Origin: a virus
Lineage: Duplodnaviria; Heunggongvirae; Uroviricota; Caudoviricetes
IMG/VR virus record: IMGVR_UViG_2778261514_000009
Length of the DNA: 11,484 bases
Direction: 5' to 3' (one strand)
The position numbers and the translations under genes were made by a program. Positions 1,321 to 9,585 of the stretch are shown here, in pieces; position 1 is the stretch's first letter, and every line of letters starts with the position of its first letter. The notes beneath the pieces were generated by a model. It was given only the letters and a program-made list of their open reading frames with translations. It had not been told where the DNA came from and did not search any database.

Positions 1321-1582
1321 AGTGTACGGATTTATAAGTAGCTGATTTTTAATGCGTTACTGGTTTTTTATACACTAGCGAATCACTCTTTAAAGAGCGA
1401 GAAAAAAGGCATGAAACAATATTTTATGCCTTTGTATTAACATGAATTTAAAAGATTTTATTCTTACTGTTTCATTTTCTGTAAATCATACATCCTCAGT
1501 ATTTGCCATTCATCACTCTAGCGGGAACAATACGACACAATAAGACACCTGATGACTCTTTAAGAAACGAAAGGGGGCAATA

Positions 1583-1771
1583 GTGTTAAGCACTGATCGG
1601 TTTATACGTGAAAAAGAATGCGAAAAACTAACCGGCCTTAGCCGTACGTGTCGCTACCGCCTGGAAAAGGCCGGACAATTCCCATCACGTCGTAAACTTG
1701 GCGGTCGTTCCGTTGGCTGGTCTTTATCCGAGGTTCTGGCCTGGAAGGATAGCTGCAAGGCAGTTCATTAA
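1583..1771 (+). CDS. alpA: AlpA-family transcriptional regulator / excisionase-like HTH protein (62 aa, GTG start)
   Basis: Pattern TGLSRTCRYRLEKAGQFP...LGGRSVGWSLSEVLAW matches the AlpA (Phage_AlpA) family; SD AAGGGGG lies 6 nt upstream of GTG at 1583. Confidence 0.85.
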   Translation: MLSTDRFIREKECEKLTGLSRTCRYRLEKAGQFPSRRKLGGRSVGWSLSEVLAWKDSCKAVH

Positions 1772-2040
1772 TCACGCTGGCGGCACGCAGCCGCCACACA
1801 TCAATCATCTGAACACAGAGCTATAACCATGAAGATTGAATATACGCCAGAACGTAGGCGGGGATTCGTTCGCCCTGGTGAAACTGAAAAACAACAAAAT
1901 TGGGGTTTTTCAGGCATAACAAAAAGCGCCCAGTTACCTGAGCGCCTTTGTGAACGATTAACCTGCTGCGAAAAAATTGGATCAGTGCAGGGGAATTATA
2001 TCAACTGTGTGAAGAAGCGCCACTATTGCCGGATAACAGG

Positions 2041-2069
2041 CAAAGAAAAGGCCACCAGTCACGGTGGCC
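2041..2069 (-). terminator. Rho-independent terminator for the minus-strand two-gene unit
   Basis: On the minus strand: GGCCACC-gtgact-GGTGGCC followed by TTTTCTTTG, about 80 bp past the stop at 2149. Confidence 0.45.
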
Positions 2070-2148
2070 CTGCGACACAAATTTCGCGTTATCCCCAACG
2101 CATGAGCATCGCCAACAATGCCACATTTGCGGCTGGTGGGCAATGCTA

Positions 2149-2322
2149 TCAGTCTGGTTCAGTTCGTTGCCATACCTGCAATGAGCGCTTTTCCCTGTAC
2201 TCTTTAAGGAATTGCTCAAGGGCAAAAGCACATGGCGCGAATCTTTCTGATTCATGCTCTATCTTTCTGCGCCGTCTTTTCCGTGCCGGTGATAATGTTT
2301 TGGTCAATTCTTTATCGGTCAT
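2149..2322 (-). CDS. Small highly basic hypothetical protein (57 aa from ATG at 2322; alternative start 2337)
   Basis: ORF track 2149..2337(-); internal ATG has AGGA 8 nt upstream; contains RKRRRRK basic tract; lies 57 bp downstream of the RHH gene and upstream of the terminator. Confidence 0.35.
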   Translation of the reverse strand: MTDKELTKTLSPARKRRRRKIEHESERFAPCAFALEQFLKEYREKRSLQVWQRTEPD

Positions 2323-2379
2323 TGTGTTGTCCTGCATAGCAATGCGCCGTAATACCTCACACCACGGCGCTGATAGTGA

Positions 2380-2559
2380 TTATTCTGATTCTTTGGCCTT
2401 GCGGCGCTGGCGGCGTTTGATCTCGCCTTCAAGTGCCGAAACGATAAATTGCCCTGTACTTTCGCCATCTTCCTTTAAATTTTCTACAGCATCAGCTATT
2501 GCGTGTGGTACTCGAGCCTCAAGCTTTTTGGATTTTGCATTAACTGCTTTTGTTGCCAT
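2380..2559 (-). CDS. Ribbon-helix-helix (CopG/Arc-like) DNA-binding protein, 59 aa
   Basis: Internal ATG of track ORF 2380..2700(-) with SD GAGGAAA 6 nt upstream; sequence KKLEARVPHAIADAVENLKEDGESTGQFIVSALEGEIKRR fits the strand-helix-helix pattern; faces a divergent promoter/operator region. Confidence 0.5.
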   Translation of the reverse strand: MATKAVNAKSKKLEARVPHAIADAVENLKEDGESTGQFIVSALEGEIKRRQRRKAKESE

Positions 2560-2580
2560 ATCTGATTTCCTCGTTATTAG

Positions 2581-2662
2581 GTGGCTGACAGTATACACAC
2601 AAGAAAACGGAAAAACACTATTGACGTGGCTGACACCCGTTACTAATATAGTGGCTGACACC
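2581..2662. promoter_or_regulatory. Divergent promoter/operator region: sigma70-like TTGACG-17-TAATAT (2621-2649, + direction) overlapped by three direct repeats of GTGGCTGACA
   Basis: Repeats at 2581-2590, 2626-2635 and 2651-2660; the second overlaps the -35/spacer and the third sits at the predicted start site; located between the minus-strand RHH gene and the plus-strand operon. Confidence 0.45.
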
Positions 2663-2753
2663 TTTGTCAAGGTAATCGATGAAAAGACAAAGCCCCGCAA
2701 GTGTCGTTACCACTCGCAGGGCTTCTAACCAACAACGTAAACTAGGAGCCGTT

Positions 2754-2954
2754 ATGGTTGCTGTAAATCATATACCACACCTTGTACACACACAAACGGC
2801 CTTTGTGTGGCGTTTTCTGGCACTGAGTGCCGGAGAATCTCAAATCATCCACGTAACCGCCTGGACGGAACGCGAAGCGCGTAGCCGTTGCCCGTCCGGT
2901 TGTGTTGCTGTATTCGCCGCCCGTATTCGTCAGGAGGTGTGCCATGTGCAATAA
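2754..2954 (+). CDS. Hypothetical small protein (66 aa), first gene of the replication-module operon; possibly Icd-like
   Basis: Internal ATG of track ORF 2679..2954 with SD AGGAG 6 nt upstream; the Icd-like resemblance is from memory only and unverified. Confidence 0.45.
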   Translation: MVAVNHIPHLVHTQTAFVWRFLALSAGESQIIHVTAWTEREARSRCPSGCVAVFAARIRQEVCHVQ

Positions 2955-3183
2955 AACCACACCGGACGCAGCCGCCGCCGCGCTCACTACGCTAATGCAT
3001 GCGCTGATTGATATTTCTGTTATTGCTGACAGGGCGCATAAGCACGCCACCAATGAAACAGAATATGCCGGGGCTTTCGTTCCTCATTCGCTGGCGGTTA
3101 TGCAACTTAGTGCTGATATGGCGCTGAATGAGGCTAAAGCCATCCTGATTGCTGATTGTGAAAATGGGGGTGGTTATGCGTGA
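2944..3183 (+). CDS. Hypothetical small protein (79 aa)
   Basis: ATG at 2944 with SD AGGAGG 7 nt upstream; start overlaps the previous stop (translational coupling). Confidence 0.45.
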   Translation: MCNKTTPDAAAAALTTLMHALIDISVIADRAHKHATNETEYAGAFVPHSLAVMQLSADMALNEAKAILIADCENGGGYA

Positions 3184-3409
3184 TGATCGTTTTAATTCCC
3201 TGAAACAGGAATTTTCCGGCGTTCCTGATGATGCGGCTGATGCGCTTTCGTCAATGCCAGAGCTTATTAGAGCGGCTTTTTTCTTACTTTCCACGAGAGA
3301 ATATAAATCAACGGGGCTTGATGTACTGAATATCGCCGCCGATTATGCGGAATATGTGGCAGAGGCGCATTACAGAAGAAAATTTCCTGAGGATGTAAGC
3401 CATGCGTGA
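3176..3409 (+). CDS. Hypothetical small protein (77 aa)
   Basis: ATG at 3176 preceded by GGGGGTGG; overlaps the upstream stop at 3181-3183; the track's TTG start at 3149 is less likely. Confidence 0.45.
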   Translation: MRDDRFNSLKQEFSGVPDDAADALSSMPELIRAAFFLLSTREYKSTGLDVLNIAADYAEYVAEAHYRRKFPEDVSHA

Positions 3410-3640: not shown

Positions 3641-3940
3641 ATGAAACTTAAATATTCTGGCTTAACTGCCAGTGGCAACACTCACCCTAAATTTACGCGC
3701 GGTGATATTTACCGCGACCAGTACGGCGGCACGGTAATGATTAAGGGCGTGGAAGAACGGCGCGTAACCTACCGCCGTGAAGGCTACGAATATGACTGCG
3801 TGATGCCTGTTTATCAGTTCCGGCGTGATTTTTCTCTGGTACAGGCAGCGCCCCGCAGTAAACCAACCAGCAGGGAGAAAGCACGCGCCAATATTCAGGA
3901 AATAAAAAAGATACTTAACGTATTCAGGGGTAAAAAATGA
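3641..3940 (+). CDS. Hypothetical protein (99 aa) immediately upstream of and overlapping the primase gene
   Basis: ATG at 3641 with GGAG upstream; its stop overlaps the primase start (ATGA at 3937-3940). Confidence 0.5.
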   Translation: MKLKYSGLTASGNTHPKFTRGDIYRDQYGGTVMIKGVEERRVTYRREGYEYDCVMPVYQFRRDFSLVQAAPRSKPTSREKARANIQEIKKILNVFRGKK

Positions 3941-5691
3941 AACTGGCACCGAACGTAAAACAGCAGTCACGCGGCATAAAACACAAAGAAACAGAAGTCA
4001 TTATTTTTGCGGGTAGTGATGCCTGGTCACACGCGAAACAATGGCAGGAACATGATGCGCGTATGGCCGGAGATAATGAGCCTCCTGTGTGGCTTGGGGA
4101 GCAGCAGCTATCCGAACTGGATAATCTGCAAATTGTGCCGGAAGGCCGAAAATCAGCACGCATATACAGGGCCGGATATCTTGCGCCAGTAATGATAAAG
4201 GCGATTGGCCAGAAGCTGGCGGCGGCAGGCGTACAGGATGCAAATTTTTACCCTGATGGTATGCACGGTCAGAAGGTGGAGAACTGGCGCGAATATCTGG
4301 CCCGTGAGCGCCAGAATCTTTCTGATGGTCTGGTCATTGAGCTTCCGGTAAAGCAAAAGGCGCAACTTTCGCAGATGGCGGACAGTGAGCGCGCGCAGCT
4401 GCTTGCCGATCGCTTTGATGGCGTTTGCGTACATCCTGAAAGTGAAATCGTTCACGTATGGCGCGGCGGGGTATGGTGTCCGGTCAGCACAATGGAACTT
4501 AGCCGCGAAATGGTGGCGATCTATTCAGAGCACAGGGCCACTTTCAGCAAGCGCGTAATCAATAACGCCGTGGAAGCGTTAAAAGTTATTGCCGAACCAA
4601 TGGGCGAGCCGTCCGGCGATTTGCTGCCGTTCGCCAATGGTGCGCTTGACCTGAAAACGGGGGAATTTTCCCCGCACACGCCGGAGAACTGGATCACCAC
4701 GCACAACGGCATTGAGTACACGCCACCAGCACCAGGGGAGAACATCCGCGATAACGCGCCAAACTTTCATAAATGGCTTGAGCACGCAGCCGGAAAAGAC
4801 CCGCGCAAGATGATGCGTATATGTGCCGCGCTGTACATGATTATGGCGAACCGGTACGACTGGCAGATGTTTATTGAGGCCACCGGAGATGGCGGGAGCG
4901 GTAAAAGTACATTCACGCACATAGCCAGCCTTCTGGCAGGGAAACAGAACACGGTAAGCGCTGAAATGACGTCGCTTGATGATGCTGGTGGACGTGCGCA
5001 GGTTGTCGGGAGTCGTCTTATCGTCCTGGCTGACCAGCCGAAATATACAGGCGAAGGAACGGGCATCAAGAAAATCACGGGCGGTGACCCCGTGGAAATT
5101 AACCCGAAATACGAAAAGCGTTTCACGGCTGTAATCAGGGCGGTGGTGCTGGCGACCAACAATAACCCGATGATATTCACCGAACGGGCCGGAGGTGTGG
5201 CACGTCGTCGCGTGATTTTCCGTTTCGACAATATCGTCAGTGAGGCCGACAAAGACAGGGAGCTACCGGAAAAGATCGCGGCTGAAATCCCTGTCATTAT
5301 CCGCCGATTGCTGGCGAACTTTACCGACCCTGAGAAGGCACGGGCTTTACTACTGGAACAGCGTGACGGTGATGAAGCTCTGGCAATAAAGCAACAGACG
5401 GATCCGGTTATTGAGTTTTGCCAGTTCCTGAATTTTCTGGAGGAAGCACGCGGCCTGATGATGGGCGGCGGTGGCGATTCAGTGAAGTACACGACCAGAA
5501 ACAGCCTTTACCGCGTCTATCTGGCGTTTATGGCGTACGCAGGCAGGAGCAAACCGCTAAACGTAAATGACTTTGGCAAGGCTATGAAGCCAGCCGCGAA
5601 AGTTTACGGACATGAATATATTACGCGGAAAGTTAAGGGAGTAACGCAGACTAACGCAATAACAACAGACGAGTGCGACGCGTTTTTATAA
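3937..5691 (+). CDS. pri: Replication initiation primase/helicase (D5_N plus SF3-type P-loop NTPase; P4-family primase C-terminal region), 584 aa
   Basis: Walker A GDGGSGKST, the downstream hydrophobic strand with acidic residue (LIVLADQP) and the characteristic ...VEINPKYEKRFTAVIRAVVLATNNNP...RRRVIFRF block; followed directly by an iteron region, as in PICI pri-rep/ori modules. Confidence 0.88.
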   Translation: MKLAPNVKQQSRGIKHKETEVIIFAGSDAWSHAKQWQEHDARMAGDNEPPVWLGEQQLSELDNLQIVPEGRKSARIYRAGYLAPVMIKAIGQKLAAAGVQDANFYPDGMHGQKVENWREYLARERQNLSDGLVIELPVKQKAQLSQMADSERAQLLADRFDGVCVHPESEIVHVWRGGVWCPVSTMELSREMVAIYSEHRATFSKRVINNAVEALKVIAEPMGEPSGDLLPFANGALDLKTGEFSPHTPENWITTHNGIEYTPPAPGENIRDNAPNFHKWLEHAAGKDPRKMMRICAALYMIMANRYDWQMFIEATGDGGSGKSTFTHIASLLAGKQNTVSAEMTSLDDAGGRAQVVGSRLIVLADQPKYTGEGTGIKKITGGDPVEINPKYEKRFTAVIRAVVLATNNNPMIFTERAGGVARRRVIFRFDNIVSEADKDRELPEKIAAEIPVIIRRLLANFTDPEKARALLLEQRDGDEALAIKQQTDPVIEFCQFLNFLEEARGLMMGGGGDSVKYTTRNSLYRVYLAFMAYAGRSKPLNVNDFGKAMKPAAKVYGHEYITRKVKGVTQTNAITTDECDAFL

Positions 5692-9171: not shown

Positions 9172-9585
9172 ATGGCAACGAATGAAAGCATCATGACGCT
9201 ACCGCTGGCGAGTAAATTTAAAGCCGAAGCGCGGGCAATGGCTGACAGAGGTTTATCAACCTATGAGGCCGTATATCAACTAAACAAACTGGAAGAGCAG
9301 GACAAGCCGCGCGCTGATGCGATTATGGCGCTTCATGAGCATAAAGACTATCAGCCGCTGTTACGTGCAATGGCAAACGTGCCATGTATTAGCGTCGATA
9401 ATGCTCGTGAAATCCTGAACATGACCATAGAGCAGGAGCGCCCAAAGGTTGCACCAGAGCTTACCGCAGCCTTTGAAAACTTTATGGACATGCACAGCCC
9501 GCAAGCCGTATCAGCTGGCATGGCATACGATGGCAGAAACCAGGGCGATGACGGCGACATCGATCGCATACTGAAAACCATCTGA
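9172..9585 (+). CDS. Hypothetical protein (137 aa), last gene of the capsid operon
   Basis: SD AGGGGGAA 4 nt upstream; followed by a terminator; no family recognised. Confidence 0.5.
   Translation: MATNESIMTLPLASKFKAEARAMADRGLSTYEAVYQLNKLEEQDKPRADAIMALHEHKDYQPLLRAMANVPCISVDNAREILNMTIEQERPKVAPELTAAFENFMDMHSPQAVSAGMAYDGRNQGDDGDIDRILKTI

What the first reader, a model, noticed from the sequence alone, without database searches (positions are those of the whole stretch)
2149..2560. Divergently transcribed RHH-like protein plus small basic protein with their own terminator
A 59-aa protein with a ribbon-helix-helix pattern and strong SD, followed by a 57-aa arginine/lysine-rich ORF and a clean minus-strand terminator, sits opposite the replication operon. 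It could be the island's repressor (autoregulating through the GTGGCTGACA repeats) or a small toxin-antitoxin or abortive-infection pair. Either role would be notable, since AlpA-controlled Gram-negative islands are described, as I recall, as lacking a dedicated master repressor.
Basis: partly seen in the sequence, partly recalled or inferred. Interest (0 to 1): 0.55.

Follow-up and report, generated by a model that had tools for sequence, protein, structure and literature searches.

The report
Hidden repressor operon of a phage satellite
The two small minus-strand genes are real, and the first one very probably encodes the sequence-specific repressor that keeps this E. coli phage-satellite island silent, a regulator the literature says has not been identified in Gram-negative islands of this kind.

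Summary
Minus-strand genes ylcI (2380-2559, 59 aa) and "s57" (2149-2322, 57 aa) form an operon. It has its own ribosome-binding sites and two intrinsic terminators, and it diverges from the icd-like/primase operon of an EcCICFT073/EcCIO42-type satellite island.

The main evidence is comparative. In about 150 loci from roughly 25 enterobacterial genera, the YlcI beta-strand sequence predicts a 10-mer repeated three times at fixed offsets. One copy overlaps the -10 of ylcI's own promoter. One sits just after the -35 and one just after the -10 of a near-consensus rightward promoter. The best reading is therefore an autoregulated immunity-type repressor of the replication operon.

s57 occurs only in E. 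coli/Shigella and always lies 57 nt behind an RHH gene. Its function is unknown, and a toxin-antitoxin reading is not supported.

The overlapping 299-aa plus-strand ORF is not a rival. It corresponds to phage P4 eta, a long ORF kept open, usually in frame with the Kil/Icd-like gene. Its amino-acid substitutions are radical, whereas those in the minus-strand frames are conservative.

No binding or expression experiment exists, so the function is inferred.

The parts
2380..2559 (-). ylcI: 59-aa ribbon-helix-helix protein of the YlcI/YnfO family; candidate island repressor
2568..2572 (-). Shine-Dalgarno GAGGA of ylcI, 8 nt before the ATG
   Evidence: Read directly from the sequence.
2149..2322 (-). 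s57: 57-aa basic protein with a disordered RKRRRRK N-terminus and one long helix holding the invariant core SERFAPCAFALE-FLK; function unknown
   Evidence: Frame test. Only 9 representatives among 1.84 billion proteins.
2323..2379 (-). Spacer between ylcI and s57, always 57 nt, with a conserved hairpin (GCGCCGUGGUG...UACGGCGC) and the s57 SD AGGA (complement of 2330-2333)
   Evidence: All 16 distinct spacers are 57 nt. Fold -17.7 kcal/mol, z = -1.1.
2040..2071 (-). Proximal intrinsic terminator of the ylcI-s57 operon (stem 2048-2071 plus U-tract)
   Evidence: Compensatory stem changes in L064/L067.
1916..1950 (-). Distal intrinsic terminator. It is the only terminator in most relatives. It lies between the convergent alpA and s57 units and has A- and T-tracts on both sides
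   Evidence: -19.2 kcal/mol, z = -4.6. A different stem with the same structure in relatives.
2581..2590 (.). Operator O_L (GTGGCTGACA), overlapping the -10 and start site of the leftward promoter
2590..2595 (-). Leftward promoter -10 (TATACT on the minus strand); the -35 is weak
   Evidence: A hexamer with at least 5 of 6 matches sits at this offset in 84 of 109 distinct control regions; it is TATACT in 72.
2621..2649 (+). Rightward promoter P_R: TTGACG, 17 nt, TAATAT
   Evidence: 9 of 12 matches. -35 TTGAnn at the same offset in 104 of 109 regions, and a -10 found 16-18 nt downstream in 71.
2626..2635 (.). Operator O_R1, starting at the last base of the -35 and filling the spacer of P_R
2651..2660 (.). 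Operator O_R2, 2 nt after the -10 of P_R, covering the expected start site
1829..2728 (+). eta-like plus-strand ORF (299 codons), antisense to s57, ylcI and the control region. In most relatives it continues in frame into icd-like; in this window it is closed by TAA at 2726-2728
   Evidence: Its substitutions are radical. No family hit.
2754..2954 (+). icd-like gene, homologue of P4 Kil (the C-terminus of Eta); first gene of the rightward operon
   Evidence: NF033153 at E = 6e-18. P4 Eta residues 161-208 match the same model at E = 1.4e-20.
2689..2725 (-). Conserved hairpin with a U-rich tail that is much more stable on the minus strand; terminator-like element of an unidentified leftward transcript

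Best explanation
The finding is a two-gene operon read leftward from a weak promoter whose -10 is TATACT (complement of 2590-2595). It ends at intrinsic terminators at 2048-2071 and 1922-1950.

Its first gene, ylcI, encodes a 59-aa ribbon-helix-helix protein. The inferred mechanism is as follows.
- YlcI dimers bind three 10-11 bp sites, GTGGCTGACA(C).
- Two sites sit inside the near-consensus rightward promoter P_R, one in the spacer just after the -35 and one over the start site. Binding there shuts off icd/kil-like, DUF4222 and primase, which form the island's replication operon.
- The third site overlaps the -10/start of ylcI's own promoter, giving negative autoregulation.

YlcI would then be the immunity-type repressor that keeps the integrated satellite quiet. 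In function it is the protein counterpart of the CI RNA that silences P_LE in phage P4. It exists in many specificity classes.

Proposed induction route, inferred by analogy with P4 and from published EcCICFT073 data: the helper phage switches on alpA. Transcription from upstream then runs through the eta-like ORF (1829-2728), antisense to s57 and ylcI, and bypasses the repressed P_R.

The second gene, s57, is a lineage-specific passenger co-expressed with the repressor. It is a small basic protein made of a single helix, possibly nucleic-acid binding. [quoted passage not shown]

What is shown: gene reality, the RHH fold, site positions, and covariation of sites with the protein. What is inferred: DNA binding, repression, and the induction route.
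For: Fold and family
- YlcI/YnfO HMM scores above its cut-off.
- AF2 model has pLDDT 91 with a strand-helix-helix layout and a GES-T turn.

Geometry
- P_R is TTGACG-17-TAATAT.
- The repeats sit at 21, 66 and about 91 nt from the ylcI ATG in nearly all relatives.
- In 109 distinct control regions, 104 keep the -35 and 84 keep a leftward -10 next to O_L.

Covariation
- The beta-strand sequence predicts the repeat across genera. KKLEARV goes with GTGGCTGACA in E. coli and Xenorhabdus (RKLEARV in Pectobacterium). KRFDVRV goes with GTGTCCGACA. QMTTVRI goes with GTGTAT(T/G)TCA in about 10 genera. QQLNARF goes with GTGCGATTCA, LQVSVRL with GTGGTGTTCA, QSVTARI with GTGTAAGACA and QTVAARV with GTGTTCAACA.
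- An unrelated Arc-like RHH in the same slot comes with different sites, GGTAATTACC palindromes.

Footprint
- Between E. coli and Xenorhabdus, the operators and promoter hexamers are invariant while the sequence between them varies.

Coding status
- In divergent pairs, the ylcI frame has 61.7% amino-acid identity and a mean BLOSUM62 score of +0.08 for substitutions. The plus-strand frame has 57.0% and -1.15.
- For s57 the figures are 67.8% and +0.02, against 65.2% and -0.97 for the plus-strand frame.

Literature
- No repressor is known for Gram-negative PICIs. AlpA is an activator and its overexpression is enough for induction.
- The model island EcCICFT073 carries the same module.
Against: - There is no experimental binding or expression data for any member. 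I found no paper that treats YlcI as a regulator.
- The leftward promoter has a poor -35 and was not picked up by the consensus scan. No start sites have been mapped.
- Two pairs of variants share the beta-strand but have different repeats: QQLNARF short versus long form, and QKIQARA in L115 versus L118. The beta-strand therefore does not carry all the specificity, and N-terminal arm residues probably contribute.
- AlpA overexpression alone induces EcCICFT073. YlcI therefore cannot be an absolute block and may only prevent leaky early expression.
- The distant family members in lambdoid prophages, such as K-12 YlcI, show no triple repeat.
- The function of s57 remains a guess.
Confidence: 0.8

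Rival explanations
1. Type II toxin-antitoxin or abortive-infection pair. YlcI would be an RHH antitoxin that autoregulates its own operon, and s57 a small toxin or effector released on phage attack.
For: - The gene order, an RHH gene followed by a small basic gene, and an operator at its own promoter resemble antitoxin-toxin operons.
- s57 is always exactly 57 nt behind an RHH gene.
Against: - ylcI keeps the same control region without any downstream partner in 77 loci from about 25 other genera, and no s57 homologue is found there.
- The same s57 protein pairs with YlcI variants only 37-50% identical to the window's, and with unrelated Arc-like RHH proteins. This argues against a specific neutralising contact.
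- After the RHH domain, YlcI has only a short basic tail, and that tail is also present where s57 is absent.
- s57 hits nothing in Pfam, NCBIfam or PADLOC. It is predicted to be one soluble helix rather than a known toxin fold.
- Two of the three operators lie in the neighbouring operon's promoter, not in the operon's own.
Confidence: 0.05
2. The plus-strand 299-aa ORF (1829-2728), annotated 'hypothetical protein' in the identical RefSeq record, is the only real gene, and the two minus-strand ORFs are antisense artefacts.
For: - PGAP calls WP_032330742.1 on the plus strand and calls no minus-strand gene in NZ_CP075652.
- This plus-strand frame has no stop codons across antisense s57, the spacer and ylcI in all 56 distinct segments examined.
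- In 35 of 47 distinct control regions it stays open and in frame into icd-like, and the in-frame spacer lengths are all 3n+1.
- pN/pS among near-identical alleles is low in both frames, 0.31 for s57 and 0.40 for the plus-strand frame.
Against: - The openness has a known precedent that does not need a conserved protein. In P4, the nested eta/kil genes span the early promoter and are translated to prevent termination. P4 Eta ends in the same Icd-like domain.
- Substitutions in the plus-strand frame are radical (mean BLOSUM62 -0.97 and -1.15). Those in the minus-strand frames are conservative (+0.02 and +0.08).
- The ORF has no family hit and no conserved start.
- It contains two structurally conserved minus-strand terminators, two promoters and three operators.
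- PGAP itself annotates ylcI, and often the small gene too, on the minus strand in other records, including CFT073.
Confidence: 0.02
3. YlcI binds the repeats but is not primarily a repressor of the replication operon. It could be an architectural or accessory factor for replication, excision or packaging, as with TraY-, ParG- or omega-type RHH proteins. It could also act mainly as an activator or autoregulator of its own promoter.
For: - AlpA alone can induce EcCICFT073, so a strict repressor role is not demanded by the published data.
- O_R1 lies just upstream of the weak leftward -35, a position from which activation is conceivable (sequence).
Against: - Two sites occupy the spacer and the start site of a near-consensus sigma-70 promoter in almost every class. 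That is the classic geometry of repression.
- There are only three sites and no iteron array. The published description places PICI origins downstream of the primase.
- No further copies of the site occur in the window, apart from one 1-mismatch match inside an ORF at 9238.
Confidence: 0.1

Closest known systems
Small ribbon-helix-helix repressors: Arc and Mnt of phage P22 immI, CopG of plasmid pMV158, omega of pSM19035
   Same: - A protein of 45-60 aa with a beta-alpha-alpha fold.
- Short, repeated or pseudo-palindromic sites placed over promoter cores.
- Autoregulation.
- CopG and omega control replication or copy number, as proposed here for the primase operon.
   Different: - There is no detectable sequence similarity. 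The PDB profile search found nothing at E <= 10.
- The site is GTG-N5-CA(C), present in three copies at 21, 66 and about 91 nt from the start codon.
- The gene is embedded antisense in a long ORF of the opposite operon.
- Binding has not been tested.
Stl/Rpr master repressors of Gram-positive PICIs (SaPIs)
   Same: - Position and logic match. The gene is transcribed divergently from the excision/replication operon and sits in the regulatory region next to int.
- It is proposed to keep the island quiescent until a helper phage acts.
   Different: - As far as I recall, Stl is a much larger helix-turn-helix protein that is inactivated when a helper-phage protein binds it.
- Here the protein is a 59-aa RHH.
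- Induction is known to go through AlpA.
- No antirepressor is known.
- There is no homology.
Phage P4 immunity region: P_LE, CI RNA and the nested eta/kil genes downstream of vis (an alpA homologue)
   Same: - The layout is the same: int, then alpA/vis, then a long ORF spanning the early promoter and ending in a Kil/Icd-like domain, then the primase operon.
- An immunity function silences a constitutive early promoter, and upstream transcription bypasses it.
   Different: - P4 silences P_LE by RNA-mediated premature termination and has no ylcI.
- This window has no C4/isrK-type RNA hit. It carries a protein repressor gene on the opposite strand instead.
- In this window the eta-like ORF is not fused to icd-like, because of the stop at 2726-2728.
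YlcI/YnfO (DUF3950) proteins of lambdoid prophages, such as E. coli K-12 YlcI in DLP12
   Same: They belong to the same NCBIfam family, NF041551. They are small proteins of unknown function transcribed divergently from a neighbouring operon, nohD in DLP12.
   Different: - K-12 YlcI is only 20% identical.
- No triple repeat lies upstream of it.
- It sits in the late region of a prophage, not between alpA and a primase operon.

Membership tests
YlcI/YnfO family (NCBIfam NF041551) | Score above the curated cut-off of the family HMM | tested here: met
   60.6 bits against a cut-off of 30, E = 1.1e-16, residues 9-50 over profile positions 1-42 of 42. Also phrog_949 at E = 3e-23.
Ribbon-helix-helix (Arc/MetJ/CopG) superfamily | N-terminal beta-strand followed by two helices joined by a G-x-S/T/N turn | tested here: met
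Ribbon-helix-helix (Arc/MetJ/CopG) superfamily | Dimer that reads DNA through the paired beta-strands | tested here: inconclusive
   Covariation of beta-strand residues with the repeated 10-mer over about 150 loci fits this feature, with two exceptions. Dimerisation and binding cannot be tested with these tools.
Type II toxin-antitoxin system | Downstream gene belongs to a toxin family | tested here: not met
   s57 has no hit in Pfam, NCBIfam or PADLOC. It is predicted as a single helix.
Type II toxin-antitoxin system | Antitoxin and toxin genes co-occur as an obligate pair | tested here: not met
   ylcI stands alone in 77 loci from other genera. s57 pairs with several unrelated RHH types.
Type II toxin-antitoxin system | Toxicity of the second gene, neutralised by the first | not testable with these tools
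   This needs expression experiments.
P4-type eta/kil nested leader gene (applies to the overlapping plus-strand ORF) | Long ORF that starts just after the alpA/vis gene, spans the early promoter and ends in frame with the Kil/Icd-like domain | tested here: not met
   In this window the ORF stops at 2726-2728 and icd-like (2754) is in another frame. The feature is met in most relatives: 314 aa in O157:H7, 428 aa in CFT073, and 35 of 47 distinct control regions. P4 Eta carries the same NF033153 domain.
P4/P1-type immunity RNA (Rfam C4, isrK) | Match to the covariance models | tested here: not met
   No hit at gathering score in the window, and none at E <= 5 in 1500-3300.
PICI master repressor (Stl/Rpr-like role) | Repressor gene divergent from the replication operon, with operators in the shared control region | tested here: met
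   Gene order and operator positions.
PICI master repressor (Stl/Rpr-like role) | Loss of the repressor derepresses the island, and a helper-phage factor relieves repression | not testable with these tools
   Published data show only that induction depends on AlpA.

The most novel reading that the evidence does not exclude
YlcI is the missing immunity repressor of Gram-negative phage-inducible chromosomal islands, including the model island EcCICFT073. It has diversified into 20 or more heteroimmune classes with a readable code linking beta-strand (and N-terminal arm) residues to operator sequence. It forms a two-strand switch with the opposite strand. In the quiescent state, YlcI made from the minus strand shuts P_R. 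On induction, AlpA-driven transcription and translation of the eta-like ORF run antisense through ylcI and s57, bypassing P_R and silencing the repressor at the same time. s57, and the conserved minus-strand terminator upstream of icd-like, would be further unrecognised layers of this switch.
Probability: 0.4. Interest if true: 0.8.

Novelty: new variant of a known kind. Interest (0 to 1): 0.68.

Why it matters
Gram-negative PICIs are widespread: 1821 of 5426 complete E. coli genomes match this 721-bp region. They move virulence and defence genes between strains.

Their regulation is described as depending on the AlpA activator, and the founding paper says that whether a repressor exists is unclear. 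A conserved RHH gene with covarying operators over the replication promoter gives that open question a concrete candidate that can be tested directly. The gene is present in EcCICFT073 and in E. coli 042, which holds another island tested in that paper, but it carries only a newer RefSeq locus tag.

The many specificity classes offer three things:
- a natural data set for RHH-DNA recognition;
- an explanation of how several related islands can coexist in one genome;
- a set of orthogonal small repressor/operator pairs for engineering.

The case also shows that genome annotation alternates between the two strands here, and that real genes are hidden inside a long antisense ORF.

Tried and rejected
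Searches that found nothing useful
- Pfam gave nothing for either protein or for the 299-aa ORF. PADLOC gave nothing.
- Rfam gave nothing at gathering score or at E <= 5. The only weak matches were the two terminators.
- The PDB sequence-profile search with the YlcI alignment gave no hits.
- tblastn of YlcI against 50,697 phage records gave no match.

Tests that did not discriminate
- pN/pS among near-identical s57 alleles did not separate the two overlapping frames (0.31 against 0.40), because their third codon positions coincide. Amino-acid identity and substitution quality on divergent pairs replaced it.
- I first took the stop-free plus-strand frame as possible evidence for a conventional overlapping gene. 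Synonymous-shuffle nulls gave P(no stop) of about 0.1-1.0 per gene. The at-risk sites are few and mostly homologous between variants, so the coding part alone is weak evidence.
- The stronger signal is the control region, which is stop-free and has 3n+1 lengths. The P4 eta/kil precedent explains it.

Ideas dropped or not pursued
- BLASTP of icd-like against the P4 ORF found nothing. The shared NCBIfam domain settled the homology.
- I dropped the idea that co-resident islands always carry different YlcI classes. Xenorhabdus indica has three fragments of the same class.
- No fold search was run for s57, because the model is a single helix of moderate confidence.
- My early note calling the window a capsid-forming PICI is withdrawn. 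The window has capsid, decoration and small-terminase-like genes, as EcCICFT073 does, but no portal, protease or large terminase.

Full report
**What the window is.** The 11.5-kb window is a complete phage-satellite island inserted in tqsA of E. coli. It is 99.9% identical over 1500-3300 to strain STEC17-183, and 97% identical over 91% of that stretch to an island at the same site in E. coli 042. E. coli 042 carries one of the islands tested by Fillol-Salom et al. 2018, probably this one. The gene order is:
- int (1-1218) and alpA (1583-1771);
- the region of the finding;
- icd-like (2754-2954), several small ORFs, DUF4222 and primase (3937-5691);
- ssb, perC, a capsid homologue, a decoration protein and a small-terminase-like gene.

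The model Gram-negative PICI EcCICFT073 has the same layout.

**Checking the observation.**
- The RHH-like gene is 2380-2559 on the minus strand, one base short of the stated end. GAGGA lies 8 nt before its ATG.
- The second ORF is 2149-2322 on the minus strand, with AGGA 7 nt before its ATG. The alternative upstream ATG, which would give 62 aa, is lost in divergent alleles.
- The "clean terminator" is at 2048-2071. A second and stronger one lies at 1922-1950. Relatives have different stem sequences that preserve both hairpins.
- GTGGCTGACA occurs three times exactly, at 2581, 2626 and 2651, which is far more than chance would give.

**Are the minus-strand genes real?**

ylcI:
- It scores twice the curated cut-off of NCBIfam NF041551, the YlcI/YnfO family.
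- It has 88 homologues in E. coli, Salmonella, Pectobacterium, Proteus, Xenorhabdus, Serratia, Yersinia, Klebsiella and Enterobacter.
- Its AlphaFold model has pLDDT 91.

s57:
- It has 36 homologues, all from E. coli or Shigella. They share an invariant core, SERFAPCAFALE-FLK, and carry in-frame two-codon indels.
- A profile search of 1.84 billion representative proteins found only nine, so the family is tiny.
- The model shows a disordered arginine-rich N-terminus followed by one long helix.

The two minus-strand frames share third codon positions with the overlapping plus-strand frame, so pN/pS among near-identical alleles cannot separate them. On pairs with at least 10% DNA divergence the frames do separate:

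| Frame | Amino-acid identity | Mean BLOSUM62 of substitutions |
|---|---|---|
| s57 | 67.8% | +0.02 |
| plus-strand frame opposite s57 | 65.2% | -0.97 |
| ylcI | 61.7% | +0.08 |
| plus-strand frame opposite ylcI | 57.0% | -1.15 |

Selection on protein properties therefore acts on the minus-strand genes.

**What the overlapping 299-aa ORF is.** RefSeq annotates it as a hypothetical protein in the identical record. In other records PGAP annotates ylcI, and often the small gene too, on the minus strand.

The plus-strand frame behaves oddly.
- It has no stop codon across antisense s57, the spacer and antisense ylcI in all 56 distinct segments from 93 loci.
- In 35 of 47 distinct control regions it also stays open and in frame with icd-like.
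- The in-frame control-region lengths are 130, 181, 190, 193, 196, 199 and 205 nt, all 3n+1.
- The resulting ORFs reach 314 codons in an O157:H7 island and 428 in EcCICFT073.

This has a known precedent. In phage P4 the nested genes eta and kil lie just after the alpA homologue. Eta spans the constitutive early promoter, and its translation prevents premature termination (summary in PMC10111431). P4 Eta (214 aa) ends in the same NF033153 Icd-like domain as window 2754-2954.

The plus-strand ORF is therefore an eta-like leader ORF, kept open but not conserved as a protein. It coexists with the minus-strand genes. In this window a TAA at 2726-2728 closes it 26 nt before icd-like.

Translation of the plus-strand frame would not argue against the minus-strand genes.

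**What ylcI does.** The shared control region has a conserved architecture.
- A near-consensus rightward promoter, TTGACG-17-TAATAT, at 2621-2649.
- One repeat that starts at the last base of the -35.
- One repeat 2 nt after the -10.
- A third repeat abutting a leftward -10 (TATACT) just upstream of ylcI.

In 109 distinct YlcI-type control regions, 104 keep the -35 at the same offset and 84 keep the leftward -10.

The decisive result is covariation. I examined 93 E. coli or viral-contig loci found through s57, and 77 loci from about 25 other genera found through YlcI. In these loci the thrice-repeated 10-mer changes with the YlcI beta-strand and stays the same when the beta-strand is the same, whatever the host.

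| YlcI beta-strand | Repeated 10-mer | Where seen |
|---|---|---|
| KKLEARV (RKLEARV in Pectobacterium) | GTGGCTGACA | this window, Xenorhabdus species, Pectobacterium |
| KRFDVRV | GTGTCCGACA | |
| QMTTVRI | GTGTAT(T/G)TCA | about ten genera |
| QQLNARF | GTGCGATTCA | |
| LQVSVRL | GTGGTGTTCA | |
| QSVTARI | GTGTAAGACA | |
| QTVAARV | GTGTTCAACA | |
| QKMSARV | TGGGTGCCAG | |

- Where an unrelated Arc-like RHH occupies the slot, the sites become GGTAATTACC palindromes.
- Between E. coli and Xenorhabdus, the operators and promoter hexamers are invariant islands in otherwise diverged sequence.
- There are two exceptions in which the beta-strand is the same but the repeats differ. They suggest that N-terminal arm residues also contribute to specificity.

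I conclude, with confidence of about 0.8, that YlcI is a sequence-specific repressor of the icd-like/primase promoter and of its own promoter. This remains an inference, because no binding or expression experiment exists.

**How it fits published biology.** Fillol-Salom et al. [quoted passage not shown] They found that AlpA is an activator whose overexpression suffices for excision and replication of EcCICFT073, and that a reporter fused to "ORF3" needed alpA.

EcCICFT073 contains the identical s57, a ylcI of the QALKARV class with its own operators, and a 428-codon plus-strand ORF that is probably ORF3. The two minus-strand genes there carry only newer RefSeq locus tags.

A consistent model, by analogy with P4, has two parts. 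YlcI silences the constitutive early promoter, as CI RNA does for P_LE. AlpA-dependent transcription from upstream then reads through the eta-like ORF, bypassing P_R and running antisense across ylcI and s57.

I found no paper that treats YlcI as a regulator. One 2026 survey lists it merely as a "prophage-associated protein".

**The toxin-antitoxin alternative and s57.**
- ylcI is monocistronic outside E. coli and Shigella.
- s57 follows many divergent YlcI variants and two Arc-like RHH types, always after exactly 57 nt.
- s57 matches no toxin or defence model.
- YlcI lacks a neutralising extension.

A toxin-antitoxin pair is therefore unlikely (confidence about 0.05). s57 is best described as a lineage-specific passenger co-expressed with the repressor. 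Its arginine-rich arm plus helix suggest nucleic-acid binding, but that is a guess.

**Verdict.** The repressor interpretation is well supported by comparison, and the toxin-antitoxin interpretation is not. The thing itself is an RHH repressor/operator module, which is a known kind. It appears here in a new setting:
- it is a candidate for the unidentified immunity repressor of Gram-negative PICIs;
- it has diversified into many specificity classes;
- it is encoded antisense inside an eta-like leader ORF.

Noticed in passing
window 2689-2725 (minus strand), with U-rich tail to about 2680: A conserved hairpin lies between P_R and icd-like. It folds at -27 kcal/mol on the minus strand (15 bp including G-U pairs, then UUUGUCUUUUCA) but only -16.3 kcal/mol on the plus strand. 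A similar hairpin with a T-rich tail lies 155-170 nt upstream of ylcI in 119 of 139 distinct regions across genera. Of 66 distinct hairpins, 64 are more stable on the ylcI strand, by 5.4 kcal/mol on average. It looks like the terminator of an unidentified leftward transcript, possibly a cis-antisense RNA over the icd/kil ribosome-binding site. Caveat: the hairpins were selected by their minus-strand fold. There is no Rfam match.
   Followed up: partly
window 2760-2780 (minus strand); related loci: A possible extended -10 promoter (TGnTAnnWT) lies on the minus strand inside the first codons of icd-like. It would start an RNA of roughly 85 nt ending at the 2689-2725 terminator. The motif was found in only 56 of 139 regions, mostly E. 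coli.
   Followed up: partly
window 1829-2728 (+) and relatives L171:2307-3251, L174:5267-6553: A plus-strand ORF is kept free of stops across two antisense genes, two promoters and three operators, and is usually in frame with icd-like. The in-frame control-region lengths are all 3n+1. It corresponds to P4 eta/kil. In this window a frame change and a TAA at 2726-2728 separate it from icd-like.
   Followed up: yes
L174 (E. coli CFT073, NC_004431 1377930-1388700): The model island EcCICFT073 carries the same module: an identical s57 protein, a ylcI of another specificity class with operators GTGGGGGACA and GTGGGCCACAC (two copies), and a 428-codon plus-strand ORF that is probably the 'ORF3' used in the published alpA reporter assays.
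   Followed up: partly
window 1778-1796 (+), just after the alpA stop: A GC-rich hairpin, GGCGGC-ACGCA-GCCGCC (-13.9 kcal/mol, z = -3.7), has no U-tract. A relative keeps it with an altered loop. Its role is unknown; it could be a protein-binding site or a pause site.
   Followed up: no
window 1971-2105: A 135-bp segment is present here and in a few relatives but replaced by a shorter, unrelated stretch in most. It brings in the second terminator (2048-2071). The region between alpA and s57 is mosaic, and in other islands it holds BRO-N, AntA/AntB, Rha or GIY-YIG genes.
   Followed up: partly
loci L019, L028, L050, L092, L152, L157, L158, L170: A long form of YlcI (101-106 aa) carries an insert of about 42 residues (…AEGSGENPLVSSLDALAQVEKLGIKAAEEIGQLVTVAREEL…) between the RHH domain and the basic tail. 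This may be an extra oligomerisation or ligand domain.
   Followed up: no
loci (Xenorhabdus, Yersinia, Pectobacterium genomes): Several genomes hold two to four ylcI loci of different specificity classes: X. mauleonii has four, X. innexi three and Y. pekkanenii three. This fits heteroimmunity. X. indica instead has three contig-end fragments of one class.
   Followed up: partly
L175 (E. coli K-12 DLP12, ylcI 580251-580445): The family's namesake, K-12 YlcI, is only 20% identical to the window's protein. It is transcribed divergently from nohD in the late region of a lambdoid prophage, and no triple repeat lies upstream of it. The satellite proteins therefore form a distinct subgroup.
   Followed up: partly
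window 9238-9247: ATGGCTGACA is a one-mismatch copy of the operator, inside the ORF 9172-9585. It is probably a chance match.
   Followed up: no
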